DNA of 64,000 bases from a virus. The stretch lies in the IMG/VR virus record IMGVR_UViG_3300008050_000030; one strand, written 5' to 3'. Below are positions 4,513-64,000 of the stretch, one piece after another; within the stretch, counting starts at the first letter, position 1; every line of letters starts with the position of its first letter. The notes beneath the pieces are model-generated. The model was not told the origin of the DNA, did not search any database, and worked only from the letters and a program-made list of their open reading frames with translations. A program made the position numbers and the translations under genes.

Positions 4513-4794
4513 GTGGCTCATCCGTCTGTGCAGATCCCCGTCCTGTGCGAGGGGAAGCTCCAGCCGAACCCCGCCGTCATCAGCGCCAGCGAAGGCGACG
4601 TGACGATCCTGGTGGGCGCCAGCGCGCTGGTCTACCCCCGCACCGGAGTGGTGCGTCAGCTCATCAACCACTGCTACGAGGCCGACACGGTCCTGCAGGA
4701 CCACCTCCCCTACAAGGTCAAGACCTTCCAGCTCCTGGCAGCCCTCAAGAGGCTCGGGGTGTTCGGGCAGCGAGCGCGAGGCTGTGCCGCGTGA
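4513..4794 (+). CDS. hypothetical protein (93 aa)
   Basis: GTG 5 nt after AAGGAG; overlaps the ligase start by 11 nt. Confidence 0.55.
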   Translation: MAHPSVQIPVLCEGKLQPNPAVISASEGDVTILVGASALVYPRTGVVRQLINHCYEADTVLQDHLPYKVKTFQLLAALKRLGVFGQRARGCAA

Positions 4795-6991
4795 TCTCAA
4801 ACCGCTGAAGGAGTTCGCCCCGGGCCTACCTGAGAAAGGTCGGGCCCGGGGTCTCCCTGCGGTCAAGGGGCGCCAGACCTGGGAACTGGCAGTACAAGAC
4901 CACGACGCTCATCGAGCGGGCAGGCACTTTGATCTTAGGTTGGGAGACCCCTCGACGGGTGTCGCGCACTCCTGGGCGTTGCCCAAGGCGAAGCTCCCCG
5001 GCCCCGGGGAGCGCCCCGTGCTCGCGGTACAGCAAGGCGACCACACCTTGGAGTACATGGACTTCCGCGGGAAGATCCCCTCGGGGTACGGCGCTGGGAC
5101 CGTGAAGCGGCATCTGCGGGACCAGGCGGAGGTCTTCCACGCAGATCCCGACAAGATCAAGTTCAACCACTACCGCGGCTCGGGGCACGACGAGTACATC
5201 CTGCGGCGCACCAAGGACAAGAACTGGCTGCTGCAGAACGTGACTCGGCACTCGGGGCGCACACCCGCCATGCCCAAGCCCAAGTACAAGGAGGAGAAGC
5301 GCGAGGCCCAGCTGACCCCCGAGGATGAGGGCAAGGTCTGGGCGCCGAAGGCGGACGGGTCTCACAACGTCTTCGTGCTGGAGAAGGGGAGGCCGATCCG
5401 TGCCTTCTCACACAGGCCGGCGAAGGCGCGGCGCACTGGCCTGATCGAGCACTCCCACAAGGTCCCCGGCCTGATGGACAAGAAGGTCCCCTCTCACCTG
5501 GATGGCACGATCGTCCGTGGGGAGATCTTCGCACGCCCGCATGGAGGAGGGCGACCTCTCCCTGCTGAGCGAGTCAGCGGCCTGCTCAACGCAGGGGTCT
5601 GGAAGTCCCGGAAGGGGCAGGAAGAGCACGGTCCGCTCGAGGTCATGACCTTCGACGTCGCCAGGTACCGCGGCAAGGACATGTCGGCTGCGCCCTACTC
5701 CGAGAAGCTGCGAGTGCTGAAGCAGGTCCAGGCGGAGTTCCCCGGCCTCAAGAGGACCCCAGTGGCCCGGACGAAGTCGGAGAAGCTCCAGATGCTGGAG
5801 GCCATCCGGCGCAAGGAGCACCCGCTCACCGATGAGGGCATCGTCGAGTGGGATCTCGCCGAGGGCACGAGGCCGAAGAAGTACAAGTTCAAGCCGGACG
5901 AGGACCTGGAGATCGTCGGCTTCTTCAAGACCAAGGGGGGCAAGTACGAGGGCACGCACGTCGGCGGCGTGCTGGTCAAGGACCCCAAGGGCAACGTCAG
6001 TCGTGTCGGCACCGGCTTCACCGACGACTTCCGCCGGCTGGCCCACGAGAAGCCCGAGCTCCTCATCGGGCGCACAGCCAAGATCACCTCGATGGGCAAG
6101 TACCCCAGCGGCAAGCTCCGCATCCCCTCCTTCCAGGGCTTGCACCCCGAGAAGAACGACCCCGACGACCTCAAGAAGCTCGAGGAGGCCGGGGTAACGC
6201 TGGAGCAGATGACCCGCACGAAGAAGGCGCACATCACCATCCTCACGGGCGGCATGGGAGCAGGCAAGAGCACTTGGGCCGAGAAGCATCGGGGCAAGTT
6301 CGACTTGGTCCTGGGGACAGACACGGGCAGCCCAGACGGGAAGGGCGGGTACAGCAGCCCCTCGAAAGAGACGAGGGACCGCATTCGCCAGGAGAAGGAT
6401 GAGCAGGCACTTGCGGCCCACAGGGCAGGGAAGCGAGTGTTGCTGGAGGGTTTCCCCAAGGGGATTCTCCAACACCCGAGGTCTCTGGCCGCAGCCGATC
6501 AACGGCTGGTCATGGGGACAGGGCCCGTGAGAAGGCTGTTCCGTGTCGCGAAGCGCTCAAGGCAGCGGGGAACCTCCACGCTAGAGGATTTGGCCTACGC
6601 AGCTGGGACGTTCAAAACGGACCGGGAGAGCTACAGGAAGATCAAAGAGCACGGGCCCCTCACAAAGGTGGCCTCAGCACTGCTGCGCGGGAAGACGGCC
6701 GCCCTGCTCCCACTCAACAAGCCCGTCGTCGTCTCCAAGACGAAGCAGAAGCACATCGACAGCTGGGAGAAGCGCAAGGGCAAGGAGGACCTGGTCTCGA
6801 CCAACCTGGGCACCGTGGCGTACAACCCCAGCAGGAAGACGATGCACGTGGAGTTCGCCAAGGGTGGCCTGTACAGGTACTCCGGGGTCTCCCCGGAGAC
6901 CTACGCCGGCGTGCTGAAGGCGAAGTCCCACGGCAAGCACTTCCACAAGCACGTGAAGGAGCCGGGGTTCCGGTACAGGAGGCTGGTGTGA
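4784..6991 (+). CDS. multidomain nucleic-acid repair enzyme: LigD-type 3'-phosphoesterase + ATP-dependent ligase + P-loop polynucleotide-kinase-like + KTSC domain
   Basis: PE motifs (HFDLRLGD, SWALPKA, FRGKIPSGYGAG); ligase motifs I KADG, III HLDGTIV, IV DEGIVEW, V KKYKFK, plus VGTGFTD; Walker A ILTGGMGAGKST; C-terminal KTSC-like YRYSGVSPETYAGVLKAKSHGKHF. Confidence 0.85.
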   Translation: MPRDLKPLKEFAPGLPEKGRARGLPAVKGRQTWELAVQDHDAHRAGRHFDLRLGDPSTGVAHSWALPKAKLPGPGERPVLAVQQGDHTLEYMDFRGKIPSGYGAGTVKRHLRDQAEVFHADPDKIKFNHYRGSGHDEYILRRTKDKNWLLQNVTRHSGRTPAMPKPKYKEEKREAQLTPEDEGKVWAPKADGSHNVFVLEKGRPIRAFSHRPAKARRTGLIEHSHKVPGLMDKKVPSHLDGTIVRGEIFARPHGGGRPLPAERVSGLLNAGVWKSRKGQEEHGPLEVMTFDVARYRGKDMSAAPYSEKLRVLKQVQAEFPGLKRTPVARTKSEKLQMLEAIRRKEHPLTDEGIVEWDLAEGTRPKKYKFKPDEDLEIVGFFKTKGGKYEGTHVGGVLVKDPKGNVSRVGTGFTDDFRRLAHEKPELLIGRTAKITSMGKYPSGKLRIPSFQGLHPEKNDPDDLKKLEEAGVTLEQMTRTKKAHITILTGGMGAGKSTWAEKHRGKFDLVLGTDTGSPDGKGGYSSPSKETRDRIRQEKDEQALAAHRAGKRVLLEGFPKGILQHPRSLAAADQRLVMGTGPVRRLFRVAKRSRQRGTSTLEDLAYAAGTFKTDRESYRKIKEHGPLTKVASALLRGKTAALLPLNKPVVVSKTKQKHIDSWEKRKGKEDLVSTNLGTVAYNPSRKTMHVEFAKGGLYRYSGVSPETYAGVLKAKSHGKHFHKHVKEPGFRYRRLV

Positions 6992-22446: not shown

Positions 22447-22486
22447 GATCTTTCTCCAGGGTTGGTGGTCTACTTCTCTTATCCCT
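22447..22486 (-). promoter_or_regulatory. start-associated cassette
   Basis: GGGATAAGAGAAGTAGACCACCAACCCTGGAGAAAGATCATG. Confidence 0.6.
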
Positions 22487-28497: not shown

Positions 28498-28560
28498 AGT
28501 GAGCTCCAGGGGTGGTTGGTCTACTTCTCTTATCCCCCAGTGACAACTCCCAGTTGTCGC
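28498..28560 (-). promoter_or_regulatory. promoter/5'-UTR cassette
   Basis: Minus sense: GACAACTGGGAGTTGTC ... GGGGGATAAGAGAAGTAGACCAACCACCCCTGGAGCTCACTATG. Confidence 0.6.
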
Positions 28561-29194: not shown

Positions 29195-29255
29195 TGGAAA
29201 CTCCAGGGGTTGGTGGTCTACTCCTCTTATCCCGCCGTACCAACTGCCAGTTGCC
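29195..29255 (-). promoter_or_regulatory. promoter/5'-UTR cassette
   Basis: Stop TGA then GGCAACTGGCAGTTGGTACGGCGGGATAAGAGGAGTAGACCACCAACCCCTGGAGTTTCCAATG. Confidence 0.6.
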
Positions 29256-29852: not shown

Positions 29853-29965
29853 GATCTTCTCCGGGGAAGGGGTTCACACCTCTTATCCCCCCATACCAAC
29901 TGGAAGTTGTCAGCTAAGCAGGAGCGAGGGGGGACCCTCGCTGCGACTGCTTTCGGCCCGCCCCC

Positions 29966-30285
29966 CTAGAAGGGGGACAGGTCTTCCAGCCCGGTTCCGA
30001 ACCGGGCCCGGACTGCGTCCCACACGCGGCACGCCGCGTAGTACGGCAGCCCAATGGGTGCCGTCACCACCAGCAGGGCGGCCATGCCCGCGCGCTGCCA
30101 GCCCGACTCCGACGAGTCGGAGGCGAACCCGACCCCGGTCCCGTACAGGGACCCGAGCATCCTCGTCACCGTGACGGTGATGAAGGAGGCGGCGGCGAGA
30201 GCCAGCGGCCGGAGCGCTGCCGTGAGGCAGCGGGTCAGCAGGGTGGCGATGAACTTGGCGAGGAACTTGGCGATGGTCTTCATAT
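29966..30285 (-). CDS. small membrane protein (MKTIA-family paralog)
   Basis: MKTIAKFLAKFIATLL; CCCTGGAGTTCGATATG context. Confidence 0.6.
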
Positions 30286-30563
30286 CGAACTCCAGGGAAC
30301 GAAGACGGCAGGGGCGCGAGAAAACCTCGCAAAGCCTCCTGTTGGTGACACTTCTCTTATCCCCGAAACACCCCCTTTTTCTGCACTTTGCAGCTGCCCT
30401 CACGCCTCCCCATCGAGCGGGTAAGTGTGCCCCTCGGCCCCGGTCAAGGGGCGCGTTTGACGGGCGGGCCGCCCGAGCTATTGCTCCCAGAGTCAGCCAG
30501 GGGTTATTGCCCCTGACCTGTCGCGCGGGGATCGAACCCGCCTCCCTTCACACCTGTCGTCAG

Positions 30564-31151
30564 CTACCCAGCCGGACTCGAACCGGCCCTTTCCTGGATC
30601 GTCTGCTCTCGGTACCAGCACCAGTAGGTCTCGGTGTGGTGCCGCCGCCATGGGTTGTGCCCTTCCGGCTTCGGCACCAAGTCCCAGGCGACCCCGCGGC
30701 TGTGGGTGCGCCGAGGCCGCTGCTTGCAGCCGGGGTCGGGGTCGTGGATGCCCCAGTACTCCGACTTCAGCGCGTAGCAGTAGACGCGGCCCCTCCCTCG
30801 GCCCCAGCGGATGGCCTGATCGATCTCCCAGGGCAGGTCCGCCTCGGCGATCTCAGGCAGGTACCCGTGCTCCTCCACCAGCCGAGTGAGCATCCTCTGG
30901 CCCAGCGCCCTCCTCTCTGCCTTCGTCATCGGGATGAGCGGAGGCCGGGAGGGGAACTTGGGGAGCTCGCCCTCCCAGAGCCGCTTGCAGTCCCCGCAGA
31001 CGTCCTCGGCGAAGATGGACTCGAGCGGGCGCTCGACAGGGTCCTTGGGCAGCGCGTTGTGGTCGACGCCGGCGATGTGCGCCTTGCCTGTGTTCCACGG
31101 GTCCTTCAGGCCGAGCTGGTACTCGGTACGCCGGGCCTGGATGAACCTCAT
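30564..31151 (-). CDS. Cys/His-rich hypothetical protein, possibly HNH-like
   Basis: CGDC...CYALKSEYWGIHDPDPGC...H..H; preceded by a 12-codon uORF. Confidence 0.6.
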   Translation of the reverse strand: MRFIQARRTEYQLGLKDPWNTGKAHIAGVDHNALPKDPVERPLESIFAEDVCGDCKRLWEGELPKFPSRPPLIPMTKAERRALGQRMLTRLVEEHGYLPEIAEADLPWEIDQAIRWGRGRGRVYCYALKSEYWGIHDPDPGCKQRPRRTHSRGVAWDLVPKPEGHNPWRRHHTETYWCWYREQTIQERAGSSPAG

Positions 31152-31817: not shown

Positions 31818-31990
31818 CGGTCTTCTCCTTGTTGTGCGCGGTCACGCCCCGGCTGCGATGACGGCGACGAAGCCCGGGTCGGGACCGAAGTACCAGTAGA
31901 TCCGAGCACTCTTCCTTCTTGCCGAGTTCGATCACGTCTGTCTCCAGTTGGGTGTACCCGCCTTATCCCGTGAACAACTGTCGGTTGCTA

Positions 31991-32061
31991 ATCAGCGAGG
32001 GGGACTCGAACCCCCAACATCTCCTTTGCGCGGGAGGGCTCTACCATTGAGCTATCTCTGA
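31991..32061 (-). tRNA. tRNA-like gene with defective anticodon arm
   Basis: Canonical D-arm TAGCTCAATGGTAGAGC and T-arm GGGGGTTCGAGTCCCCC; acceptor stem with one A-G mismatch; anticodon arm is only CTCC/GGAG with an 8-nt loop lacking U33; no encoded CCA. Confidence 0.5.
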
Positions 32062-32097
32062 CACTCTTCTTATCCCCTCAACAACTCCCAGTTGACG

Positions 32098-33582: not shown

Positions 33583-33647
33583 ATGATCTCCGGGGGTTGT
33601 GGTCTGCTTCTCTTATCCCTCCGCGGCAACCCCCAGTTGACGCTAAG

Positions 33648-38358: not shown

Positions 38359-38396
38359 GAGATCTCCAGGTAGGGGGTGTACTCCTCTTATCCCTG
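38359..38396 (-). promoter_or_regulatory. start-associated cassette
   Basis: GGGATAAGAGGAGTACACCCCCTACCTGGAGATCTCATG. Confidence 0.6.
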
Positions 38397-38399
38397 ATC

Positions 38400-38879
38400 T
38401 CAGGGGCAGTTCTCGTTCACGAACTCACGAGCTTCATCGGGCCGCAACTCGGCCCCGAAGTAGTCCTCCCGGGCGAAGGTCGTCTCCACGAGATCGTGTC
38501 CGTGGCGCCCCCAGCTGTGGGATCGCCAGACCCCGTCGTCGAGGCAGTATCCGGTGATGAGGACGAGCCTCTCGTCGAGAAGCCACTCGTGGGAGATGTT
38601 GGAGTGGCAGCGTCCGGCCTCCCCCTCCCGGAGCTGGATCTTCTCCGGGCGGTAGGGCTGGCCGCGCTCGAGGAGGATCTTCAGATGCTCCTCGATGCCG
38701 TTGACGCAGATCTCTTCCCCTCCCTCAGCGAGGAGCACCTCCCGCAGTCTTGCCAGCGCCGGCTGCACGCGTAGGGCGCTCTCGTACCTCGATCTCAGGA
38801 AGGTCAGTTGTCGTGGGGTCATCAGGCAGTCGTTGCTGAAGGAGTCGTTGAGCGCGCTTCGGCTCGGTTCCGAAGGCAC
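38400..38879 (-). CDS. hypothetical protein (GTG 38879 or ATG about 38822)
   Basis: Strong GC3; +1 frame relative to the 3' tail of the sigma factor ORF. Confidence 0.55.
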   Translation of the reverse strand: MPSEPSRSALNDSFSNDCLMTPRQLTFLRSRYESALRVQPALARLREVLLAEGGEEICVNGIEEHLKILLERGQPYRPEKIQLREGEAGRCHSNISHEWLLDERLVLITGYCLDDGVWRSHSWGRHGHDLVETTFAREDYFGAELRPDEAREFVNENCP

Positions 38880-39816
38880 CGCGCACTGCGCCGGCGGAGA
38901 CGCCGGGAGGGAGCACGGTCTCGGTCAAGATCTCGTAGGACTCCGCCATCCCGGCCAGAGAGCCTTCCAGCTCTCGGACACGGGCGCGCAGAGCCGCCAC
39001 GGTGTACAGGTCGTCCTCGGTCATTCCCTCCGCCATCTCGGCCATCTTCTTCATGGCCCGCAGCTCAAGTTGTCGTACACGTTCGCGAGTCAGGCCCATG
39101 TCGGTCCCGACCATCTCCAGGGAGTCGCCTTCCTTCACGAGCGAGGGGTGGCCGCCAGGAAGCATCCTTCGCCGAAGGATGATGTACCGCTCTCTCGCCG
39201 GAAGAGCCCCCAGGAGCATGCGGACGACCAGTTCTCGTCGAGAGGCTCGCCACTGGATGTCGTAGGCGTCCTCGGGGGTGTGTCGGTCGATGAACAGCTG
39301 GTGAGGAGGGCGGTCCTCGTCCCCCAGATCTTCTCGCTGCTCCCACCGCAGAACGGCCTGGAGCCGGATGAGGTCCTCCACGGGGCGGCCCACATCCTTG
39401 GACAGGCTCTCCATGAACTTGTCGTCTCCCAGGGTCTCCGAGACGGAGTTCCCGGTCTTCATCATGTGCCGGGTGATGCGAACCAAGGCCGCTTGTGCCC
39501 AGGAGGAGCGAGTGGCCTTGAACTGGTCCTTTTCGAGGCGGCGGTAGCGCTGGAGAAACGCCTTGATCCAGTGGTAGCAGTAGGTGGACAGGCGGGCCTT
39601 CTCGGGGTCGTACTTCAGCACGGCTCGGTGGAACCCCATGGCGACCTCCTGGAAGGCGTCATCCGGGTCCAGACCCTTGCCGTGCGTGTGCACCATCTTC
39701 CAGAACAACTGCACGTACGAGCGCGTGAGCGTGTTCATGGCGTTCGAGTCCCCCGCCTGTGCAGCGCGAGCAAGCCGGTCCTGCTCCTCTGCCGGGAAGG
39801 GAGGTAAGGGGGTCAT
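38725..39816 (-). CDS. RNA polymerase sigma factor, sigma-70 family
   Basis: Region 2 (STYCYHWIKAFLQRY) and region 4 (GLTRERVRQLELRAMKKMAE); GCTGGAGGTGCCGATG context; coding GC3 fades after about 38880. Confidence 0.8.
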   Translation of the reverse strand: MTPLPPFPAEEQDRLARAAQAGDSNAMNTLTRSYVQLFWKMVHTHGKGLDPDDAFQEVAMGFHRAVLKYDPEKARLSTYCYHWIKAFLQRYRRLEKDQFKATRSSWAQAALVRITRHMMKTGNSVSETLGDDKFMESLSKDVGRPVEDLIRLQAVLRWEQREDLGDEDRPPHQLFIDRHTPEDAYDIQWRASRRELVVRMLLGALPARERYIILRRRMLPGGHPSLVKEGDSLEMVGTDMGLTRERVRQLELRAMKKMAEMAEGMTEDDLYTVAALRARVRELEGSLAGMAESYEILTETVLPPGVSAGAVRGAFGTEPKRAQRLLQQRLPDDPTTTDLPEIEVRERPTRAAGAGKTAGGAPR

Positions 39817-39830
39817 CGGCACCTCCAGCG

Positions 39831-57721: not shown

Positions 57722-58159
57722 TCACCGGCGTTTCCTTCGTCGTCGGCGGGGTTTCTCCTCGGGCGTGACGCCCTTCTCCAGGACCAGCAGCCTCAACAGG
57801 CGCTGGCAGTCCTTCACGCCGAAGCGCGCGATGTGTGCGTCCTCCTTGGTCAGTCCCATGGCGTCCTGCATCCAGCGGTACGCAGCCCCGCGGCTGTAGT
57901 CCCCCGTCTTCCAGAGCTGATCGAAGGCGGAGTGCGCCTTGTTCCTCCAGTGCTTGTCGGCCTGCTGGATGGGAATCCCCAGCGGGACGCCGTCGGGGTG
58001 AGCTCCGATGCCACCGAGGCAGTCGAAGCGCCCGTAGTGCTCGCAGCGGTAGTGGAGCCCGTACATGGATTTGCGCAGCTTGAGCTGCCCCGAGCACTCG
58101 GGCTCGGGGCAGCTCAGAGGGTGCTCCCAGTACGGGACGCCGTCGATCTCAACCAGCAC
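57722..58159 (-). CDS. Cys/His-rich hypothetical protein
   Basis: CPEPEC...CEHYGRFDC; basic tail RRRRRKRR. Confidence 0.65.
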   Translation of the reverse strand: MLVEIDGVPYWEHPLSCPEPECSGQLKLRKSMYGLHYRCEHYGRFDCLGGIGAHPDGVPLGIPIQQADKHWRNKAHSAFDQLWKTGDYSRGAAYRWMQDAMGLTKEDAHIARFGVKDCQRLLRLLVLEKGVTPEEKPRRRRRKRR

Positions 58160-58321
58160 GTCGGGCCTCGGAGACCCTCTTGATCGTCTCGAACTCCTCT
58201 CGGGACACCAGCTGCCGCTCCGCCACGGTCAGGTGGGAGTACTCCCACTTGATGTCCTTGAAGTAGTAGTGGCTGAGCTTCAGCAGCGCGATCAGCGCGG
58301 CCTTCTCGTCGTCGGTCATGG
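58149..58321 (-). CDS. hypothetical small protein
   Basis: AAGGA SD; ATGA-coupled to the ligase. Confidence 0.5.
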
Positions 58322-59797
58322 CAGTCCTTGGAGCTTCGAGTTGACGCACTCCTCCACTTCCTTGTCGTCGCGGAAGGCGACGATGCGGGGGTGGATCATG
58401 GCGTTGGTCTTGCCCCCCTCGGAGACGTAGAAGCGCGTGGAGTACTCCACGCGCACGACCAGGGGGTAGAGGTCAGGGTCGGCCAGGTTGGCTTTGTTCT
58501 CCTTCGTCAGGCCGCCTCCGCAGTCGCAGAGGTAGATCAGGTCGCCATCGTCGGTGAGCTGGTGCAGCGCCACGCTGCCCACCTGCCCCTGGTACTTCCC
58601 CGTGCCCCAGGTGCCGAGGCCCTGGTCCGGCTCCCAGTAGGCGATGCAGTCGTCCTCGTAGACCGGCTTGAGCTTCCCAGTGAACTTGCCCGGCCGGTCC
58701 GGCTTGCCGCGGAAGTTGTAGGCCCGATCGCCGAAGACGCCCTTGGGGTCGACGACCACCCAGCCCTCCCAGCCGTTGTACTGCGCGAGGGCTCGGGCGA
58801 TCTGGTCGAGGTGGACCACCACCTCCTCCTTGCCCCCGCCCTCCATGAGGACGGCCGTCGGGAAGAGGGACCGTCGCTTGGAGTAGCGGAGCTCGCGCCC
58901 CTCCTGACCGGCGGCCCAGATCACCGCGCGGATGCCCTCCTCCCAGACCTGCTTGGGGGTGAGGGTCTGCAGAGGGAGCAGCCACTGCGCGTCCTTGGTG
59001 AGCTCCTCGATGGTCCCCATGCGCTCCGAGAAGGTGCGCGTGGTCCCCACCATCTCCCCGTCCCACGCCCCGATGTCCCAGACGTACATCGAGAGCCAGG
59101 GGTTGCCTCCGGACTGCTGGAGCTGGAGCGCCTTGTTGGTGTAGGACTTGGTGACCTGCTGGACGAAGGCGAAGTCGTCCTTGCCTCCTCGGTCGGCGAC
59201 GAGCTCCCCCAGCAGGATGGAGTTCGGAGGGATGACGCCCTCCCGCAGCATCACGAGGACCTCCTCGTAGAGCATGGGGAAGCGCTCGGCCCAGAGGCGG
59301 TAGCTCTCCCCCTCCGCCTCTCGGTCATGGGTGGGCCGCATCCGACGGCTGTAGATCTCCACGTCGTCGTCGGTGGTGCGGATGACGTGCATCATCCCCT
59401 CGCGCTTCCGCCCGAAGAGCACGCCCTTGCCCAGCAGCACCTTCTTGAGGAGCGTGGCGGACAGCGTGTTGTCCGGCTTGTAGAAGCAGAGGGAGAGCGG
59501 CAACTGCTCGTCGGGGAGCAGGGCGATGGGGGCCGCGTCCTCGCCGTCCTCGAGGTACCCCTTGTACACCTGCAGCATGATCTTTCGGGCGGCCCGGTCC
59601 AGGGCGTAGTCCTCGGCGTCGATCTCGTTGGACTTGCCCACGTTGATGGCGCTGTAGGTGTGGGAGGTCTCCTGCATGGCGCCCCCGAGGACGCCGTGGG
59701 TGGTGGTTTCGGTCGCGCCGTCGACGCGGATGGTCCAGGCCAGCGTGTGCTTGCGGCCCTTCTGTCGGAACTCGCGGGTCTCACCCGTCCAGGCCAT
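58316..59797 (-). CDS. ATP-dependent DNA (or RNA) ligase
   Basis: Motif I KREGMMHVIR...IYSRR; III LLGELV; IV EGWVVVDPKG; V GKLKPV; VI HPRIVAFRDDKEVEE. Confidence 0.75.
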   Translation of the reverse strand: MAWTGETREFRQKGRKHTLAWTIRVDGATETTTHGVLGGAMQETSHTYSAINVGKSNEIDAEDYALDRAARKIMLQVYKGYLEDGEDAAPIALLPDEQLPLSLCFYKPDNTLSATLLKKVLLGKGVLFGRKREGMMHVIRTTDDDVEIYSRRMRPTHDREAEGESYRLWAERFPMLYEEVLVMLREGVIPPNSILLGELVADRGGKDDFAFVQQVTKSYTNKALQLQQSGGNPWLSMYVWDIGAWDGEMVGTTRTFSERMGTIEELTKDAQWLLPLQTLTPKQVWEEGIRAVIWAAGQEGRELRYSKRRSLFPTAVLMEGGGKEEVVVHLDQIARALAQYNGWEGWVVVDPKGVFGDRAYNFRGKPDRPGKFTGKLKPVYEDDCIAYWEPDQGLGTWGTGKYQGQVGSVALHQLTDDGDLIYLCDCGGGLTKENKANLADPDLYPLVVRVEYSTRFYVSEGGKTNAMIHPRIVAFRDDKEVEECVNSKLQGLP

Positions 59798-60404
59798 CGT
59801 CTGCTCCTTCGCTCAGCTTCAGCTGCTTCTGGTTCTCGCACCAGGCGTGGTAGCCCAGGCGGGTGTCGCCGTTGGCGACTTCGTACTGCCAGTCCTTCGA
59901 GGGGTTGGTCGGGTCCTCCTCCCAGTGGCCGGGCGTCTCGGCCTTCAGGCTGTCCTCCTGGTCGCGGATCCAGCTCTGGGTGCCTCCCCAGCGGATGTCG
60001 TCGCGCAGGATGAAGCAGGCCCAGCCCCCGTGCTCCCCCTGGCGGAGCTTGTCGCAGGTGAAGGCGCCCTCGACCCAGAGGTAGGGGTACTCCTCCTCGT
60101 CCAGGCCCGTGAGGATGTGCTGAAGGAGGGTCGCCCCGTCCTCCGAGAGGCCGTATTCGCAGAAGAGGTAGAACTTGCCGCCCTGGGGCTCGAAGTCCAG
60201 TCGCCCGTCGCGGTACTCGTAGGTGAGGCCCAGGGCAATGGCCTTGCGGTCGAGAGCGAGCTGTTCGGTGTTCTCGGGGTCGAGGACCGTGCCGTCGTCG
60301 AAGTCGATCGCGGCGTCGTCGGGGTCCCAGCGAAGGAGGTCCTGTTGGGCCTCGGTCAAGGGGAGGAGAGGGGAAACGGTCCCCTGGGAGTGGTTGTTGG
60401 CCAT
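59781..60404 (-). CDS. hypothetical acidic protein (207 aa)
   Basis: High GC3; coupled downstream to the ligase. Confidence 0.65.
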   Translation of the reverse strand: MANNHSQGTVSPLLPLTEAQQDLLRWDPDDAAIDFDDGTVLDPENTEQLALDRKAIALGLTYEYRDGRLDFEPQGGKFYLFCEYGLSEDGATLLQHILTGLDEEEYPYLWVEGAFTCDKLRQGEHGGWACFILRDDIRWGGTQSWIRDQEDSLKAETPGHWEEDPTNPSKDWQYEVANGDTRLGYHAWCENQKQLKLSEGADDGLDG

Positions 60405-60434
60405 GTCTGCTTGATCCTAAGTTTTCACGCGCAA

Positions 60435-60468
60435 GGGAGCCCCACCAGCTTGTGCTGGTGGGGCTCCC
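60435..60468. terminator. GC hairpin after the MVP-like gene
   Basis: GGGAGCCCCACCAGC-TTGT-GCTGGTGGGGCTCCC preceded by CCTAAG. Confidence 0.55.
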
Positions 60469-60488
60469 GGGTTGTCTGCGGACGAGCT

Positions 60489-63092
60489 CTACGCCTGGGC
60501 GTCGACCCCGTTGCTGGGCGCCTGGAGCGCTCCCAGCACCTTCTGACCGATCGCGGTGCCGCCGAGGACCGTGGCGATCGTGCCGCCGAAGTCCCCGCCG
60601 TCCAGCGCCGTCTGGACCTTGAGGGCCTCCGCGAGCTGGATGACCGTCTGCTTGTCGCCCAGGGCCATGATGGCCTGGGAGACGTCACCGCTGACGGCCT
60701 TCGCCTTGTCGGTGAACGCGGCCGTCTGCGCCTGGATGAGGGCCAGCTCGATGACCTGCTTCGCCTGGGAGAAGGCGATCTCCTGGTCCTGCCCGGCCTT
60801 GCGCCGGGCGATGGCCGCCGTGTTCCGCTCGCCGTCGATCGCGTCGGAGGCCTTCTGCAGCTCGAGCTGCTGCTCGTGCTCGGCCTTGGTGGCCAGCTGC
60901 CGCGCCTCCGTCTCGGTCTTGAGCCGCGCGATGGCTTCCAGCTCGAGCTTGGCGTTCAGCGCCGCGGTCGCATCCTTCACCTCCATGCCCTGACGCTTGA
61001 GGTCCTCACGCTCGGTGGTCGCCTTCAGCTGACGACGCGCCTGCTCCAGGCTCAGGTTGAGGGTGATGGCCTCGACGGCCGCGTTGGTCAGCTGCTCGCC
61101 GATCTGGCGGTGGAGGATCTGGATGTCCAGCACCTCCACGTCCTTCACGTGCAGCCCGTTCTCCTCGAAGCTCAGCCCCGCACGGGACGCGGCCTCGGTC
61201 TTCTTGCCCTCCTTCTTCTCGCCCAGGATGGTGTCGCGGACGAACGCCTCGCCGTTCTTGAAGAACGACTCGATGCTCTCCTTGCGCACCGCCGCCCGCA
61301 GCATGCTGCGCGCCCGGTCCGTGAGCATCTTCACGTAGTTGTCCACGGTGAACCACTTGCTGTCGTCGCCGGTGAAGTCGCACCGGAAGGACAGCTTGAG
61401 GTTCACCTTGACGTGGTCCGACGTCTCGACGGTGACCACGTCCGACACCTGGTTGTTGGCGACGCGCAGGTACACGTCGGTGATCAGGCGATCCGTCGTC
61501 TTCGGCTTGCCCGTGGACAGGCTGAAGTACTCCAGGTCCTCGTCGTACGCCAGCAGCACCGGGGCCGGGCCCGTCACCACTCGGCGGTTCCCCTGCTTGT
61601 CCACGATCTGGACCGCGTAGCCCGTGTGGATGTTGAGGAGCGGGGCGCCGTTGAAGCGGCCCGAGAGGGTCACCATCCGCGGCTCGGTGAAGTTGGACTT
61701 GCGGGTGAACTCGTCGCCCACCGCGGAGCCCGTGCCGTAGGAGACCGAGGACCGCGCGGCGACGGCGCCGTCGATGTTCTCGGTGCCCCCGCCAGCCCGA
61801 CGGATCTTCTTGTTCCGGCGCACCTGGCCCTCGGACACGGTGCCCGCCCGGGTGGACGGCGTGCCGCGCATGGCCCGGCGGAGGGCGTCGTTGTACTCCA
61901 TCACCTCCTGGTTGTTGGGGTACCAGTGGCCACACTGGCGGGGGGACAGGATGCGACGGACGATCACCTCCTCGACGGGGTTGGGGAGCAGCATCGCCGG
62001 CCCCTTGACCATGCGGATGACGCCCGTGGTGCGGTTCATGACGTACCGCGCGTCGCCCGCGGGGATGGCCACCGCGTAGGACTTGGCCTCGCCGTCGTAC
62101 TTCACGAACGAGACGTGCTCGGTCGGGAAGAAGATGGTGGTGTCCTTGCCCGTGATGAAGACCTCCTGGCCCTCCTCGAACTCGCGCCCCTTCTTGCCGT
62201 AGACCCCGTTGGTGTCCTTGAACCCCGCGATGAAGCGGAGGTGGACGCCCTGGATCGGCGACAGCTCGATGGGGCTGAAGATGCGAATCGGGTTGCCCGC
62301 CTCGTCGATCTCCTCGGAGTGGAACCGCTGCGTCGGCGCGGGGAACACCACCGCCGGGCCGCGGACGAACGACTTGTCGCCGCTCTCGTCGACCAGGATG
62401 CAGTACTCGAGCCGCTCCAGCGTCACCGCGTCGCGGACGTACGTCTTGTGCCGGTCCGGGACCACCTCCACGCCCGTGGGCGGGATGTAGTAGGACACGT
62501 CCGTGCCCTTGACCAGGTACAGCTTGCCCTCGGCCAGGTCGGCCGGGATGCCGCTGTCCGCCGAGGCGATCTCCGTCGAGGCGGTCTCCTCGCCCTGGTT
62601 CTCCGGGTTGGGGGCGGCCGGCTTCATGACCGCCGAGCCCCAGTTCTCCCGCGCGTCGTCCGCGTCGTAGACGCGGATCAGCAGGTACTGGTTGCTCCGG
62701 AGCTGGTGCCCCGGGATCAGCTCGACGTGCTGGTGCGGCCAGGGGACGAAGTTCGCCGGGCCGTTGATGACGACGCGGCGGCCCATGTCCAGCTCGGCGC
62801 TGGGGCGGCTGCCCTTGATCGGGAACGGGGCGTCGTCGGACGCCGGGTTCTCGAGGATGGCGTACTGGCCCTTCTCCACCAGGATGGCGTTGTGGACGGC
62901 GTCGTACATCTGGTCGACGGCCAGGATGGCGCGCTGGCGGTGGTCGTAGTTGACGGCCTGCTCGGCACCGCTGATCTTGACGACGGTGGGCCCCACGTGC
63001 ACGTGGACGACTCCGGTCGTCGACGTGTCCTGCACGAAGGCGTACTGCCCCACGGGCAGCACGAGGTCACTGTTGTTTCGGCGAGGATCCAT
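60489..63092 (-). CDS. major vault protein (MVP) homolog
   Basis: Colinear with eukaryotic MVP: repeat domains, then VVTVETSDHVKVNLKLSFRCDF (compare [22 protein letters not shown]), shoulder WFTVDNYVKMLTDRARSMLRAAVRKESIESFFKN, cap-helix coiled coil; CACCTGGAGATAGAGAATG start context. Confidence 0.85.
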   Translation of the reverse strand: MDPRRNNSDLVLPVGQYAFVQDTSTTGVVHVHVGPTVVKISGAEQAVNYDHRQRAILAVDQMYDAVHNAILVEKGQYAILENPASDDAPFPIKGSRPSAELDMGRRVVINGPANFVPWPHQHVELIPGHQLRSNQYLLIRVYDADDARENWGSAVMKPAAPNPENQGEETASTEIASADSGIPADLAEGKLYLVKGTDVSYYIPPTGVEVVPDRHKTYVRDAVTLERLEYCILVDESGDKSFVRGPAVVFPAPTQRFHSEEIDEAGNPIRIFSPIELSPIQGVHLRFIAGFKDTNGVYGKKGREFEEGQEVFITGKDTTIFFPTEHVSFVKYDGEAKSYAVAIPAGDARYVMNRTTGVIRMVKGPAMLLPNPVEEVIVRRILSPRQCGHWYPNNQEVMEYNDALRRAMRGTPSTRAGTVSEGQVRRNKKIRRAGGGTENIDGAVAARSSVSYGTGSAVGDEFTRKSNFTEPRMVTLSGRFNGAPLLNIHTGYAVQIVDKQGNRRVVTGPAPVLLAYDEDLEYFSLSTGKPKTTDRLITDVYLRVANNQVSDVVTVETSDHVKVNLKLSFRCDFTGDDSKWFTVDNYVKMLTDRARSMLRAAVRKESIESFFKNGEAFVRDTILGEKKEGKKTEAASRAGLSFEENGLHVKDVEVLDIQILHRQIGEQLTNAAVEAITLNLSLEQARRQLKATTEREDLKRQGMEVKDATAALNAKLELEAIARLKTETEARQLATKAEHEQQLELQKASDAIDGERNTAAIARRKAGQDQEIAFSQAKQVIELALIQAQTAAFTDKAKAVSGDVSQAIMALGDKQTVIQLAEALKVQTALDGGDFGGTIATVLGGTAIGQKVLGALQAPSNGVDAQA

Positions 63093-63172
63093 TCTCTATC
63101 TCCAGGTGCACACGGGGAACGGCCCGTATACTGCTCAAGTTGTGATGGCCACCGTCTGGCCGGGAGTCTTGA
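63093..63172. promoter_or_regulatory. divergent intergenic region (MVP-like gene / + gene)
   Basis: 80 bp containing GTATAC and CAACTTGAGCAG half-site-like sequences. Confidence 0.4.
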
Positions 63173-63370
63173 ATGAAGTTGCAGATGTCCGTGATCGATG
63201 GGGAGGTGCCTGCGTCTCCGGAGGAGATGAAGGCTCTCGTGGACGAGGAGCTCGCCCGCTTCGATCGGTGGTGGGCGGCACAACCGGGCCACGAGGACCC
63301 GATGCACCCGCTGGAGCGGATGCTGGTGGCCACCTACATCGTGCAGAAGCTCAGGGGAGAGATCCCCTAA
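63173..63370 (+). CDS. hypothetical small protein (65 aa)
   Basis: GGGAG SD; high GC3. Confidence 0.55.
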   Translation: MKLQMSVIDGEVPASPEEMKALVDEELARFDRWWAAQPGHEDPMHPLERMLVATYIVQKLRGEIP

Positions 63371-63492: not shown

Positions 63493-64000
63493 GTGGTCTG
63501 GACATCCTCACAGACGTCGGCCCTGACGGCGCAGTCCCAGCAGGGCTTCATGCAGCAGGCCCAGATGTCGCAGCAGATCGGCGTCTCCGTCGGCACGGCG
63601 CCGGCCTACATGCACGGGTACCAGAACCCGACTCCGCGCTTCGCACAGAACATGGCCGCCACTGGAGGCATGGGGATCCCTCTGGCGTCGGGCATGGCTC
63701 ACGGGGCGCTCGCCTACGCGGCCCCCACGGTCTTCAACCCGATGTCGGCCGGCATGGCGGGGTACGGCGCAGCCGGTGCAGCCGGCATGGGGACGGTCGG
63801 CGCGGTGGGCATGGGGCTCGGGGCCGCGGCGCTACCCATGGCCGGGATCGCCGCAGGGGCTCGGATGGGGCAGGAGGCCTTCGCCGGCTTCCGGCACGGA
63901 GCCTCGTTCCGCCAGCAGGCGTCGGCGAACATGAACTTCGTCAACACGTCCAGCATGACCGGGCGCGGGATGGCCACCAAGCAGGTCACCGAGATGGCCA
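63493..64000 (+). CDS. Gly/Ala/Met-rich protein, 3'-truncated
   Basis: GTG after AGGAG; very high GC3; GMG/AAG repeats; continues past window end. Confidence 0.6.
   Translation, partial: MVWTSSQTSALTAQSQQGFMQQAQMSQQIGVSVGTAPAYMHGYQNPTPRFAQNMAATGGMGIPLASGMAHGALAYAAPTVFNPMSAGMAGYGAAGAAGMGTVGAVGMGLGAAALPMAGIAAGARMGQEAFAGFRHGASFRQQASANMNFVNTSSMTGRGMATKQVTEMA

What the first reader, a model, noticed from the sequence alone, without database searches (positions are those of the whole stretch)
60489..63092. Eukaryote-type major vault protein homolog in a phage-like element
The 867-aa protein is colinear with eukaryotic MVP, from N-terminal beta-repeat domains through the shoulder (SPFH-like) domain to the cap-helix coiled coil. 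Near-identical diagnostic stretches include VVTVETSDHVKVNLKLSFRCDF and WFTVDNYVKMLTDRARSMLRAAVRKESIESFFKN. MVP is essentially a eukaryotic protein with only sporadic bacterial homologs; a copy carried by a mobile/viral element next to a ligase and driven by the element's own cassette promoter is unexpected. It could form a vault-like shell (an alternative container, decoration or intracellular compartment), or it could be how MVP genes move between bacteria.
Basis: partly seen in the sequence, partly recalled or inferred. Interest (0 to 1): 0.85.

Follow-up and report, generated by a model that had tools for sequence, protein, structure and literature searches.

The report
Vault-shell protein gene in a large phage
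A large, mostly uncharacterised phage-like genome carries an intact bacterial-type homolog of the major vault protein next to a ligase gene; the homology is real, but such genes are common in Myxococcota and in many large phages and have been reported before, so this is a new member of a known but functionally untested group.

Summary
The 867-aa ORF at 60489-63092 (-) is real and is a true major vault protein (MVP) homolog. Pfam finds MVP_shoulder (2.6e-25) and Vault_3 (4.7e-10). An AlphaFold model aligns along its whole length to solved vault shells (E about 1e-30) and to the murine R1-R7 repeats (1e-10).

It is not "eukaryote-type". It is 43-48% identical over its full length to prokaryotic MVPs, mainly Myxococcota, and only 15-17% identical to eukaryotic MVP.

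The family is large: 1,084 clusters at 50% identity, at least 360 bacterial species, and at least 234 IMG/VR viral contigs including 462-735 kb huge phages. Phage MVPs were reported in a 2023 preprint, and the bacterial MVP-RtcB RNA-repair link in 2016.

The host element is a 188-kb, ORFan-rich contig, probably a large phage, but no capsid, portal or terminase gene was seen.

The repeated "cassette promoter" is absent upstream of MVP. The gene has its own conserved 15-nt element and a strong downstream hairpin. MVP-ligase adjacency is conserved in the lineage.

Best reading: a soluble cage-forming shell protein, possibly tied to nucleic-acid end repair.

The parts
60489..63092 (-). MVP homolog, 867 aa. 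Vault-type beta repeats (about 1-380). A basic helical and disordered insert (381-484). A last repeat matching Vault_3 (485-545). An SPFH-like shoulder (546-661). A cap helix (662-796). A low-confidence C-terminal tail (797-867).
   Evidence: ORF. Pfam MVP_shoulder 2.6e-25 and Vault_3 4.7e-10. PDB MVP chains at 1e-18 to 4e-19. AF2 model. Foldseek to vault shells at 3e-30 and to R1-R7 at 1e-10. No TM segment, and the insert has net charge +7. GC3 is 0.97, among the highest in the window.
63124..63138 (-). Conserved 15-nt element TTGAGCAGTATACGG, 32 to 46 nt upstream of the MVP start codon. It is a candidate gene-specific promoter or operator.
   Evidence: It is identical in the window and in the 69%-identical relatives L004 and L006, while the flanking sequence has diverged. 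It is the only copy in the window, L001 and L168 with up to 3 mismatches. No sigma-70 consensus site is found in 57.5-64 kb.
63100..63103 (-). GGAG Shine-Dalgarno, 7 nt upstream of the ATG.
   Evidence: Read directly from the sequence. Conserved in L004 and L006.
60435..60468 (-). Perfect 15-bp GC-rich hairpin starting 21 nt after the MVP stop codon. It is a terminator- or stabiliser-like element that separates MVP from the downstream genes.
   Evidence: Fold of window:60400-60495(-): z = -4.0, and 0 of 200 shuffles fold as well. An 18-bp hairpin sits at the same position in L004, z = -4.7.
59781..60404 (-). 207-aa ORF of unknown function between MVP and the ligase. It is absent from the P0002 lineage.
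   Evidence: ORF. phrog_11556 (unknown function) at 1.5e-11 over the C-terminus only. No Pfam, NCBIfam or PADLOC hit. Missing in L004 and L005.
58316..59797 (-). 493-aa ATP-dependent ligase-like protein of the DNA-ligase clade. Its substrate is untested. Its adjacency to MVP is conserved in the lineage.
   Evidence: phrog_114 at 7.6e-13. PF01068 at 7.5e-5, below the cutoff. PDB 2cfm DNA ligase at 0.0025. Residues 21-95 match genes annotated as DNA ligase in 135 phage records. The ortholog in L004 is 80% identical and sits directly after MVP.
58149..58349 (-). Small ORF (56-66 aa) overlapping the end of the ligase gene, in the same operon.
   Evidence: No family hit.
57722..58159 (-). 145-aa DUF3268 / phrog_1934 protein, the last gene of the minus-strand operon.
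   Evidence: phrog_1934 at 4e-20. PF11672 is listed for it.
63173..63370 (+). 65-aa ORF transcribed divergently from MVP. It is the first gene of the rightward block.
   Evidence: A counterpart of 66 aa is conserved in L004.
63493..64000 (+). N-terminus of an 1103-aa ORF that runs off the window. It is followed on the contig by a 316-aa ORF, an 1105-aa lysozyme-domain protein and a 452-aa ORF.
   Evidence: The 1105-aa protein matches phrog_7 endolysin at 6e-29 and phrog_430 tail lysozyme at 3e-4.

Best explanation
The gene encodes an intact, soluble, prokaryotic-type major vault protein carried by a large (at least 188 kb), ORFan-rich, probably tailed-phage genome.

Shown:
- The protein has the whole MVP architecture: beta repeats, SPFH-like shoulder, and a cap helix of about 135 residues.
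- It is conserved at 64-69% identity in sister elements.
- It heads a five-gene minus-strand operon: MVP, a 207-aa ORF, an ATP-dependent ligase, a small ORF and a DUF3268 protein.
- It has its own conserved upstream element, a good Shine-Dalgarno, very high GC3 and a strong hairpin immediately downstream.

Inferred:
- As in MVP and every other structurally solved SPFH-plus-coiled-coil protein, the shoulder and cap helix drive assembly into a closed ring or cap. The repeats would then form the wall of a cup- or barrel-shaped cage in the infected cell's cytoplasm.
- The hairpin lets MVP be made in large excess over the downstream enzymes.

More tentatively inferred from gene neighbourhoods: the cage works with nucleic-acid end-healing and sealing enzymes, here the adjacent ligase. 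In other phages the neighbours are RtcB, an RNA ligase, a PNK-like kinase or phosphatases, and in Myxococcota they are rtcR-rtcB. On this view the cage serves as a counter-defence or repair device against host nucleases.

The gene lineage sits nearer to Myxococcota and related metagenomic MVPs than to the main phage MVP clade. That fits exchange between phage and a Myxococcota-like host.
For: Homology and architecture. Soluble.

Cage inference: the second-tier Foldseek hits are all cage-forming SPFH assemblies (flotillin, HflK/C, prohibitin, erlin, stomatin).

Conservation and synteny: the same gene order appears in three assemblies. MVP followed by the ligase is kept in the 69%-identical lineage.

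Expression signals: and GC3.

Repair link in cells: RtcB (Pfam 2e-129) lies directly upstream on the same strand in 12 of 76 bacterial loci. RtcR (4e-72) is in 15, an RNA ligase in 4 and a 2H-like protein in 4, giving a union of 23 of 76. The link is published (Burroughs & Aravind 2016, via PMC13404743).

Repair link in phages: 12 of 79 viral loci carry such genes. L011 has MVP followed by RtcB. L083 has an RNA ligase, an AAA_33 kinase and a metallophosphatase. L030 has MVP followed by a 2H-like protein. LR756500 has an AAA_33 kinase 1.1 kb upstream.

Phage nature of the element:
- PHROG hits to a sigma factor, endolysin-like proteins, a nucleotidyltransferase and a ligase.
- 64 of the 71 small ORFs match neither PHROGs nor Pfam, and there are no housekeeping genes.
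- One Rfam-supported tRNA.
- A repeated promoter motif.
- The nucleotidyltransferase matches 753 phage records, best a 485-kb huge phage at 46% identity.
- An 1105-aa lysozyme-domain protein lies next door.

Placement: the window clade is monophyletic in 60 of 60 bootstrap replicates, and its sister group is bacterial or metagenomic in 58 of 60.
Against: - No assembly data exist for any prokaryotic or phage MVP. The model is a monomer of moderate confidence (pLDDT 68.8), with the C-terminal tail and several loops below 50.
- The adjacent ligase belongs to the DNA-ligase clade, not to a known RNA-ligase family.
- No RtcB, PF09414 RNA ligase, PNK-like kinase, 2H or VIT homolog occurs in the roughly 84 kb of the element examined.
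- Repair-type neighbours are present in only 15% of viral and 30% of bacterial loci. No single neighbour family recurs in more than 9 of 79 viral loci. Enrichment over background was not tested statistically.
- No major capsid, portal or terminase gene was found in the window or flanks, so 'phage' is probable but not proven.
- The tree is NJ, without eukaryotic or cyanobacterial sequences.
Confidence: 0.55

Rival explanations
1. Passenger or 'moron' gene. The MVP was picked up from a Myxococcota-like host and does for the phage whatever it does for the cell (unknown, perhaps a stress or storage function). It has no functional tie to the neighbouring ligase, and the adjacency is an accident of genome mosaicism.
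For: The nearest relatives include chromosomal Myxococcota genes on Mb-scale contigs. No neighbour is conserved across phage MVP loci. The ligase looks like an ordinary phage DNA ligase. A strong hairpin separates MVP from the downstream genes.
Against: MVP is kept intact, with its own conserved upstream element and the ligase adjacency, across lineages that have diverged to 64-69% identity. MVP recurs in at least 234 viral contigs spanning 22-67% GC, which argues for a phage-beneficial function. Repair genes recur next to it in several unrelated phages.
Confidence: 0.17
2. Not a phage gene at all. The contig is a piece of a Myxococcota (or other high-GC bacterial) chromosome, plasmid or other giant mobile element, and the MVP is an ordinary cellular copy.
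For: No capsid, portal or terminase gene was found in about 84 kb. The contig is not in IMG/VR, whose best viral hit is only 44% identical. MVP is typical of Myxococcota. GC is 66%.
Against: There are no housekeeping genes, and 64 of 71 small ORFs match nothing. The genes are short, co-oriented and tightly packed, with a repeated promoter motif. PHROG-type genes are present, and the best hit of the nucleotidyltransferase is a 485-kb huge phage. A giant lysozyme-domain protein is typical of virion-associated hydrolases. Curated huge phages LR756500, LR756501 and LR756503 carry MVP.
Confidence: 0.1
3. Virion-associated structure. The MVP forms a decoration, internal body or alternative container that is packaged with, or forms part of, the phage particle.
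For: It is a self-assembling shell protein. The gene sits back-to-back with a block of very large ORFs that includes a probable virion lysozyme. It shows signals of high expression.
Against: It shares an operon with a ligase and small ORFs, not with structural genes. Cellular homologs sit in rtcB operons, not in prophage structural modules. The 2023 preprint also found phage MVPs outside the structural clusters. No PHROG structural family matches.
Confidence: 0.08
4. Nucleotide sponge. The cage sequesters NAD+/ADP-ribose-type molecules or immune signalling nucleotides through the shoulder pocket described for human MVP.
For: Human MVP binds NAD+, ADP-ribose and ADP in an SPFH-domain pocket (PMC12280208; 10.64898/2026.05.01.722283). 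The G-x-P-K core of the 'keyhole loop' is invariant in the prokaryotic family (G528, P530, K531).
Against: The positions aligned to human R507, H509, R511, D521, F522 and W545 are T, D, I, N, Q and C here (alignment; residues). The pocket is therefore largely not conserved.
Confidence: 0.05
5. Generic SPFH/Band-7 protein mistaken for MVP.
For: Band_7 gives a weak hit at 0.018. SPFH cages are second-tier structural matches.
Against: MVP_shoulder at 2.6e-25 and Vault_3 at 4.7e-10 both pass their cutoffs, while Band_7 does not. MVP chains outrank SPFH proteins by more than 20 orders of magnitude, and the R1-R7 repeat crystal structure matches at 1e-10. There is no membrane anchor.
Confidence: 0.01

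Closest known systems
Prokaryotic MVP homologs of Myxococcota (Nannocystaceae, Kofleriaceae, Haliangiales, Polyangia), including the rtcR-rtcB-MVP operons noted by Burroughs & Aravind 2016
   Same: Identity is 43-46% over the full length with the same domain order, including the basic insert before the last repeat. These are the nearest named relatives in the tree. In both cases the gene is associated with a nucleic-acid ligase.
   Different: The window copy is on a phage-like element, not a chromosome. Its partner is a DNA-ligase-clade enzyme rather than RtcB, and no RtcR or RtcB is present. It sits on a long branch with only two close relatives (P0002 at 69%, P0003 at 64%).
Phage MVPs of uncultured gut Caudoviricetes ctOa11 and ct2Ri15 (Santos et al. 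2023, bioRxiv 10.1101/2023.11.10.566534)
   Same: They are full-length MVP homologs encoded by tailed-phage genomes, outside the structural gene clusters, and they cluster with bacterial rather than eukaryotic MVPs.
   Different: Those are low-GC gut phages of Bacillota-type hosts, and they were not among the tblastn hits in the phage collection searched. The element here has 66% GC and is at least 188 kb.
MVP genes of huge phages LR756500 (462 kb) and LR756501/LR756503 (735 kb) and the main IMG/VR viral MVP clade
   Same: Identity is 38-39%, over 96% of the query in LR756500 and 82% in LR756501/LR756503. They are carried by very large phages: 45 of the 80 listed contigs are at least 100 kb and 17 are at least 200 kb. 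Some have repair-type neighbours.
   Different: They form a separate clade from the window's lineage. Most have much lower GC, 22-50%. The Al-Shayeb et al. 2020 paper does not mention vault proteins.
Eukaryotic major vault protein (rat, human and rabbit vault shells; PDB 4V60, 4HL8, 9BW5, 9Z4W)
   Same: They share a colinear architecture of repeats, SPFH-like shoulder and a cap helix of similar length. These are the best structural matches, at E about 1e-30.
   Different: Identity is only 15-17% in the Foldseek structural alignments, and sequence similarity is significant only over residues 491-830. An extra basic helical and disordered insert (381-484) is present. No TEP1/TROVE, PARP4 or vault RNA partner was found. 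The NAD+ pocket is largely not conserved.
SPFH-family cages (HflK/C, flotillin, prohibitin, erlin, stomatin)
   Same: They share the SPFH-like domain followed by a long helix that forms a closed oligomeric cap (ranks 17-50).
   Different: Those are membrane-anchored and lack vault repeats. The window protein has no TM segment, and its Band_7 score is below threshold.

Membership tests
Major vault protein (MVP) family | SPFH-like MVP shoulder domain (PF11978) | tested here: met
   E 2.6e-25, 89.2 bits against a cutoff of 25, residues 546-660 covering profile positions 2-117 of 118.
Major vault protein (MVP) family | Array of vault beta-repeat domains N-terminal to the shoulder | tested here: met
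   Vault_3 at E 4.7e-10 over residues 492-536. The model's N-terminal half matches the murine MVP R1-R7 crystal structures at E about 1e-10. Caveat: only one repeat is detected by sequence profile, and the model is of moderate confidence.
Major vault protein (MVP) family | Long cap helix directly after the shoulder | tested here: met
   The predicted single helix at 662-796 aligns to the rat and rabbit cap-helix region in phmmer domain 4.
Major vault protein (MVP) family | Colinear full-length match to solved MVP chains, ahead of any other fold | tested here: met
   The top 12 Foldseek hits are all MVP, E 3e-30 to 5e-25, with 855-1001 alignment columns. The next unrelated family (SPFH) starts at 2e-7.
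Major vault protein (MVP) family | Self-assembly into a closed cage (39-fold half-vaults in eukaryotes) | not testable with these tools
   No multimer prediction or experiment is available. The inference rests only on homology.
Eukaryote-type MVP clade (eukaryotes plus cyanobacteria, as described by Sokolskyi 2019) | Closer to eukaryotic MVP than to MVPs of chemotrophic bacteria | tested here: not met
   Identity is 43-48% over the full length to prokaryotic and metagenomic MVPs. It is 15-17% to eukaryotic MVP, with a partial alignment only. The quoted 'diagnostic' stretches are 41% and 29% identical to rat MVP.
Vault ribonucleoprotein particle (MVP plus TEP1, PARP4 and vault RNA) | Minor vault components or vault RNA encoded by the element | tested here: not met
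   No TROVE or PARP domain appears among the window ORFs scanned. There is no vault RNA or Y RNA hit in Rfam at gathering score over the whole window, or at E<=1 around the gene.
Bacterial rtcB-linked MVP RNA-repair operon (Burroughs & Aravind 2016) | RtcB and/or RtcR adjacent to MVP | tested here: not met
   tblastn with RtcB, a PF09414 RNA ligase, a PNK-like kinase and a 2H-like protein finds nothing in the window, L001 or L168 at E<=0.01. The feature is met in Myxococcota relatives and in viral locus L011.
Bacterial rtcB-linked MVP RNA-repair operon (Burroughs & Aravind 2016) | A nucleic-acid sealing enzyme in the same operon as MVP | tested here: inconclusive
   A 493-aa ATP-dependent ligase-like gene is present and its adjacency is conserved. 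However, it belongs to the DNA-ligase clade and its substrate is unknown.
Tailed phage (Caudoviricetes) genome | Hallmark genes: major capsid protein, portal, terminase large subunit | tested here: inconclusive
   None was detected among the ORFs of the window and about 20 kb of flanks. About 104 kb of the 188-kb contig could not be read.
Tailed phage (Caudoviricetes) genome | Phage-typical gene content and organisation, with no cellular housekeeping genes | tested here: met
   PHROG hits to a sigma factor, endolysin-type proteins, a nucleotidyltransferase and a ligase. Most ORFs match nothing. A repeated promoter motif is present. The closest relative of the nucleotidyltransferase is a 485-kb huge phage.
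Generic SPFH/Band-7 membrane scaffold | Band_7 domain above threshold plus a membrane anchor | tested here: not met
   Band_7 scores 15.6 bits against a cutoff of 23.6. The maximum Kyte-Doolittle 19-residue average is 1.22, so there is no TM segment.
Known anti-phage defence systems (PADLOC) | Match of MVP or its operon partners to a defence-system model | tested here: not met
   No PADLOC family matches any of the 7 proteins at E<=0.01.

The most novel reading that the evidence does not exclude
Large phages of many hosts, including the largest known at 735 kb, routinely encode their own vault shells. These would assemble into cytoplasmic protein cages in the infected bacterium, acting as a phage-made compartment that houses or protects nucleic-acid end-repair activities against host nuclease defences. 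That would be a second kind of phage-built organelle after the phage nucleus. Phages would also be the vehicles that spread MVP among bacteria, and conceivably beyond.
Probability: 0.2. Interest if true: 0.85.

Novelty: new member of a known kind. Interest (0 to 1): 0.5.

Why it matters
The function of vaults has been unresolved since 1986, and no prokaryotic or viral MVP has been studied experimentally. All PDB hits here are eukaryotic.

This locus on its own adds one more phage MVP. The survey it prompted shows more:
- MVP genes are common in large phages: at least 234 IMG/VR contigs spanning GC 22-67%, including curated 462-735 kb genomes.
- They repeatedly sit beside RNA or DNA end-repair genes, both in phages and in Myxococcota.

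If phage MVPs do form cages linked to repair or counter-defence, they would offer a genetically simple system for testing what a vault shell is for. They would also add a new type of phage-made intracellular structure. If they do not, the locus is just a horizontally acquired host gene.

Tried and rejected
- PHROGs, NCBIfam and PADLOC searches with MVP gave no family.
The repeated GGGATAAGAG motif is absent there and in L001. The conserved MVP-specific 15-mer is not repeated anywhere in the roughly 84 kb examined. The sigma-70 consensus scan found nothing in 57.5-64 kb.
- I looked for an ncRNA in the MVP operon, because bacterial MVP operons are reported to carry ncRNAs. Rfam at E<=1 gave only implausible hits: a palindromic mir-486 match on both strands inside a coding region, and a sub-threshold SorX match. 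The intergenic structure is a simple hairpin.
- I looked for conserved neighbours of MVP across 79 viral loci. No family is present in more than 9 loci.
- I tested conservation of the human MVP NAD+/ADP-ribose pocket. Only G-x-P-K is kept, so the sponge idea is not supported.
- I tried to read Burroughs & Aravind 2016 directly, but it is not held, so it is cited second-hand through PMC13404743.
- I looked for capsid, portal and terminase genes with PHROGs and Pfam on all sizeable ORFs and flanks. None was found.
- tblastn with E. coli GroES failed to locate the ORF that gave the Cpn10 Pfam hit.
- The 1172-aa plus-strand ORF at 59658-63176, antisense to MVP, is a high-GC artefact. It was not retained by the GC3/GC2 coding filter and clusters only with other antisense ORFs.

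Full report
**1. The observation**

The ORF at 60489..63092 on the minus strand exists as described. It starts with ATG and encodes 867 aa. A GGAG Shine-Dalgarno lies 7 nt upstream. Both quoted peptides are in its translation.

Pfam gives MVP_shoulder (E 2.6e-25, residues 546-660, almost the whole profile) and Vault_3 (E 4.7e-10, residues 492-536). Both are above their curated cutoffs. Band_7 is below its cutoff. phmmer against all PDB chains returns only major vault proteins, at E 4e-19 to 2e-18. The significant alignment covers residues 491-830, which is the last repeat, the shoulder and the cap helix.

The N-terminal 490 residues were not significantly aligned by sequence, so I built a 44-sequence alignment (A1) and predicted the structure (mean pLDDT 68.8). 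The model has these parts:
- a beta-rich region at about 1-380
- a helical segment at 384-433 followed by a disordered stretch
- another beta repeat at 485-540
- an alpha/beta domain at 547-660
- one continuous helix at 662-796

Foldseek against the PDB puts twelve MVP vault-shell chains first, at E 3e-30 to 5e-25 with alignments of 855-1001 columns. The crystal structures of murine repeats R1-R7 follow at E about 1e-10. SPFH cages (flotillin, HflK/C, prohibitin, erlin, stomatin) appear only from E 2e-7.

That criterion is not met, and colinearity with MVP holds. The protein has no transmembrane segment.

The identical protein occurs with the same neighbours in three independent assemblies, so it is not an assembly chimera.

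**2.

- The two 'near-identical diagnostic stretches' are 9/22 and 10/34 identical to rat MVP. They are about 54% identical on average to prokaryotic homologs.
- The window does contain a clear repeated promoter-like cassette, GGGATAAGAG(R)AGTAGACC, preceded by CAACTnnCAGTTGACGCTAAG. All 14 copies lie on the minus strand between 18.5 and 40.8 kb. None lies upstream of MVP or in the right flank.
- MVP instead has a 15-nt element of its own, TTGAGCAGTATACGG at 63124-63138. It is perfectly conserved in the 69%-identical relatives while the surrounding sequence has diverged. It is unique in the roughly 84 kb of the element I could read.

**3. Which MVP it is**

The protein database search returned at least 3,815 relatives. 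After an identical entry and two close relatives (69% and 64% identity), the hits are 43-48% identical over the full length. Many come from Myxococcota MAGs.

An exhaustive HMMER scan of 1.84 billion cluster representatives finds 1,084 clusters at 50% identity, of which 556 have E<=1e-30. In one-genome-per-species GTDB contigs, 360 stretches encode relatives. The best 80 are overwhelmingly Nannocystaceae, Kofleriaceae, Haliangiales and Polyangia. They are often on Mb-scale contigs, and some MAGs have two copies.

Identity to eukaryotic MVP is 15-17% in the Foldseek structural alignments. The protein therefore belongs to the prokaryotic ('chemotroph') MVP clade, not to a eukaryote-type one. The premise that bacterial homologs are sporadic is wrong.

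**4. MVP in phages generally**

tblastn against 50,697 phage records gave three hits, all uncultured huge phages. LR756500 (462 kb) matches at 38% identity over 96% of the query. LR756501 and LR756503 (735 kb) match at 39% over 82%. The Al-Shayeb 2020 paper describes a 735-kb genome as the largest phage genome then known, and it does not mention vault proteins.

A pattern-based scan of IMG/VR found 234 viral contigs encoding relatives. Of the 80 kept, nearly all encode full-length or near-full-length copies at 35-44% identity. GC ranges from 22% to 67%. Forty-five contigs are at least 100 kb and 17 are at least 200 kb. BFVD, the set of predicted viral protein structures from UniProt, contains no phage MVP.

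In the literature:
- A 2023 preprint reports the 'first viral MVPs', in two gut Caudoviricetes.
- Bacterial MVPs were described in 2013 and 2019.
- A Borg 'vault protein' was noted in 2025.
- Among the jumbo- and huge-phage papers listed, only the Borg paper mentions vaults.

The kind is therefore known, but its breadth in large phages seems undocumented.

**5. The element**

The window corresponds to about positions 19,896-83,895 of a 188,377-bp contig. GC is uniform at about 66%, and the genes are short, tightly packed and in co-oriented blocks.

Larger ORFs match these PHROG or Pfam families:
- an ATP-dependent ligase, in two ORFs, one of which also has a LigD 3'-phosphoesterase domain and a KTSC domain
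- a PAPS-reductase-like protein
- a nucleotidyltransferase
- a sigma-70 factor
- endolysin-type domains
- DUF5983

Of the 71 smaller ORFs, 2 match PHROGs and 5 match Pfam (GIY-YIG, methyltransferases, Cpn10, glycosyltransferase). There are no housekeeping genes.

The nucleotidyltransferase matches 753 phage records, and its best hit is a 485-kb uncultured huge phage at 46% identity. Just beyond the right end lie ORFs of 1103, 316, 1105 and 452 aa. The 1105-aa protein carries a lysozyme domain (phrog_7 at 6e-29, and a weaker match to the tail-lysozyme family).

No capsid, portal or terminase gene was detected in what I could read. I estimate about 0.8 probability that the element is a large phage, but this is not proven.

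**6. Local anatomy**

MVP heads a five-gene minus-strand operon running from 63092 down to 57722:
- MVP
- a 207-aa ORF, which is absent in the 69%-identical lineage
- a 493-aa ligase-like gene that overlaps the end of the 207-aa ORF
- a small ORF
- a DUF3268 / phrog_1934 gene

A perfect 15-bp GC hairpin starts 21 nt after the MVP stop codon (z = -4.0). An 18-bp hairpin occupies the same position in the relative (z = -4.7). MVP has GC3 of 0.97, among the highest in the window. Together with the private upstream element, this suggests that MVP is expressed abundantly, with limited read-through into the enzymes. That is what one would expect for a shell protein needed in many copies. This step is inference.

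The ligase has the DNA-ligase-clade signature:
- phrog_114 at 7.6e-13
- PF01068 below its cutoff
- a best PDB hit to an archaeal DNA ligase at 0.0025
- an N-terminal match to genes annotated as phage DNA ligases

Its substrate is unknown.

**7. Functional context from relatives**

I clustered ORFs within 8 kb of MVP in the 76 bacterial loci where an MVP ORF was recovered, out of the 80 fetched. This gave:
- RtcB (Pfam 2e-129) in 12 loci, in 10 of them immediately upstream on the same strand
- RtcR (4e-72) in 15 loci
- a PF09414 RNA ligase with a PHA02142 OB domain in 4 loci
- a 2H-phosphoesterase-like protein (my reading of its two HxT/S motifs; no Pfam match) in 4 loci

In total, 23 of 76 loci carry such genes. 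[quoted passage not shown]

Among the 79 viral loci, 12 have repair-type genes:
- L011 (a 209-kb contig) has MVP followed directly by RtcB, plus a homolog of the window's ligase about 9.5 kb away.
- L083 has an RNA ligase, an AAA_33 kinase and a metallophosphatase side by side.
- L030 has MVP followed by a homolog of that 2H-like protein.
- LR756500 has an AAA_33 kinase 1.1 kb upstream.

The window itself has no RtcB, RNA ligase, PNK-like kinase or 2H homolog. The association is suggestive but partial, and I did not test it against a background frequency. No PADLOC defence model matches MVP or its operon partners.

**8. Origin**

In an NJ tree of 167 MVPs, the window, P0002 and P0003 form a long-branched clade inside the Myxococcota-dominated part. 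That part is separate from a clade of 65 viral contigs plus LR756500.

With 60 bootstrap replicates on a reduced set, the window clade is monophyletic in 60 of 60. Its sister group is bacterial or metagenomic rather than viral in 58 of 60. Median distances from the window protein are 0.88 to the metagenomic group, 0.97 to the bacterial group and 1.16 to the viral group.

The nearest outgroup on a long contig (P0011, 46% identity) lies in a dense run of small ORFans and itself looks phage-like. Viral and bacterial sequences interleave. That fits repeated exchange between phage and host, with a Myxococcota-like host most likely here. Direction and number of transfers were not resolved.

**9. Mechanism and verdict**

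Best-supported reading, at confidence about 0.55 for the whole statement: this is a soluble, prokaryotic-type MVP that assembles, through its SPFH-like shoulder and cap helix, into a ring-capped cage in the infected cell. It is made in excess from its own promoter. It possibly acts with end-healing and sealing enzymes as a repair or counter-defence device.

My confidence by step:
- About 0.95 for homology and architecture, which are shown.
- About 0.6 for cage assembly, which is inferred from homology with MVP and every solved SPFH cage.
- About 0.35 for the repair link, which is inferred from neighbourhoods.

The rivals are listed with their evidence: a passenger gene, a cellular rather than phage origin, a virion component, and a nucleotide sponge. 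The sponge idea is weakened because only the G-x-P-K core of the human NAD+ keyhole loop is conserved.

Novelty: this is a new member of a known kind. Interest is moderate at 0.5. The single locus is not surprising to anyone who knows the 2016-2023 literature. However, the breadth of MVP in large phages and its repair-gene neighbourhoods make the old question of vault function more approachable.

Noticed in passing
window 18504-40790, minus strand (e.g. 22467-22485, 28518-28536, 29215-29233, 33601-33619, 38376-38394): A repeated promoter-like cassette, GGGATAAGAG(R)AGTAGACC, often preceded about 20 nt upstream by CAACTnnCAGTTGACGCTAAG. There are 14 copies of the 10-mer core against 2.6 expected, all on the minus strand in front of small genes. 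It could be the target of the element's own sigma factor (38725-39822, -).
   Followed up: partly
window 31990-32062 (-): A tRNA-like gene supported by Rfam (45.4 bits). ARAGORN reads it with a 4-base anticodon 'cgca', so it could be a frameshift-suppressor-type or otherwise unusual tRNA. The two other ARAGORN calls (29953-30029 Pro, 30563-30657 Thr) are not supported by Rfam at gathering score and overlap ORFs.
   Followed up: no
window 4784-6991 (+): A second, larger ligase-like protein (735 aa). It combines a LigD 3'-phosphoesterase domain, a ligase OB domain and a C-terminal KTSC domain, so the element carries two distinct end-repair-type ligases.
   Followed up: partly
L001:1790-9600 (beyond the window's right end; the 1103-aa ORF starts at window 63493): Two giant ORFs (1103 and 1105 aa) are transcribed divergently from MVP. 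The second has an internal lysozyme domain (phrog_7 at 6e-29) and is possibly a virion-associated hydrolase. The first has no detectable homology.
   Followed up: partly
L112:11634-14093 (+) and three other Myxococcota loci (cluster 12): A protein with VIT, proprotein-convertase P-domain and vWA domains lies 0.9-4.7 kb downstream of MVP in at least 3 of the 4 loci where it occurs. VIT plus vWA is the domain pair of the vault component PARP4. However, this protein has a signal-peptide-like N-terminus, so the link may be coincidental.
   Followed up: partly
BFVD entry A0A3G5A4K1 (Harvfovirus sp., 802 aa): A giant-virus 'prohibitin domain-containing protein' aligns to the model over 972 columns at E 1e-14. 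It may be an unrecognised MVP homolog in a virus of eukaryotes.
   Followed up: no
L088-L167, e.g. JADKKI01 (L118, L123), CANKMW01 (L116, L121), JAHBVW01 (L101, L126): Several Myxococcota MAGs carry two MVP paralogs on different contigs. One type tends to be the rtcB-linked copy.
   Followed up: no
L076:15237-16616 and four other low-GC viral loci (cluster 15): A protein of about 460 aa, judged flotillin-like from its sequence (no profile search was run), is encoded 3-7 kb downstream of MVP. It lies in the same phage loci that carry the AAA_33 kinase and metallophosphatases. These phages would thus have two different SPFH-type cage proteins close together.
   Followed up: no
window, one of the 71 ORFs of alignment A2 (coordinates not resolved): One small ORF matches Pfam Cpn10 (GroES co-chaperonin) at 8.8e-7. 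tblastn with E. coli GroES did not locate it.
   Followed up: partly
window 381-484 of the MVP protein (DNA about 61641-61952, -): A basic helical segment (net charge +7) plus a glycine-rich disordered linker is inserted before the last vault repeat. It is conserved across prokaryotic and phage MVPs and appears, from the partial sequence alignments, to have no counterpart in eukaryotic MVP. It is a candidate nucleic-acid-binding or cargo-binding segment.
   Followed up: no
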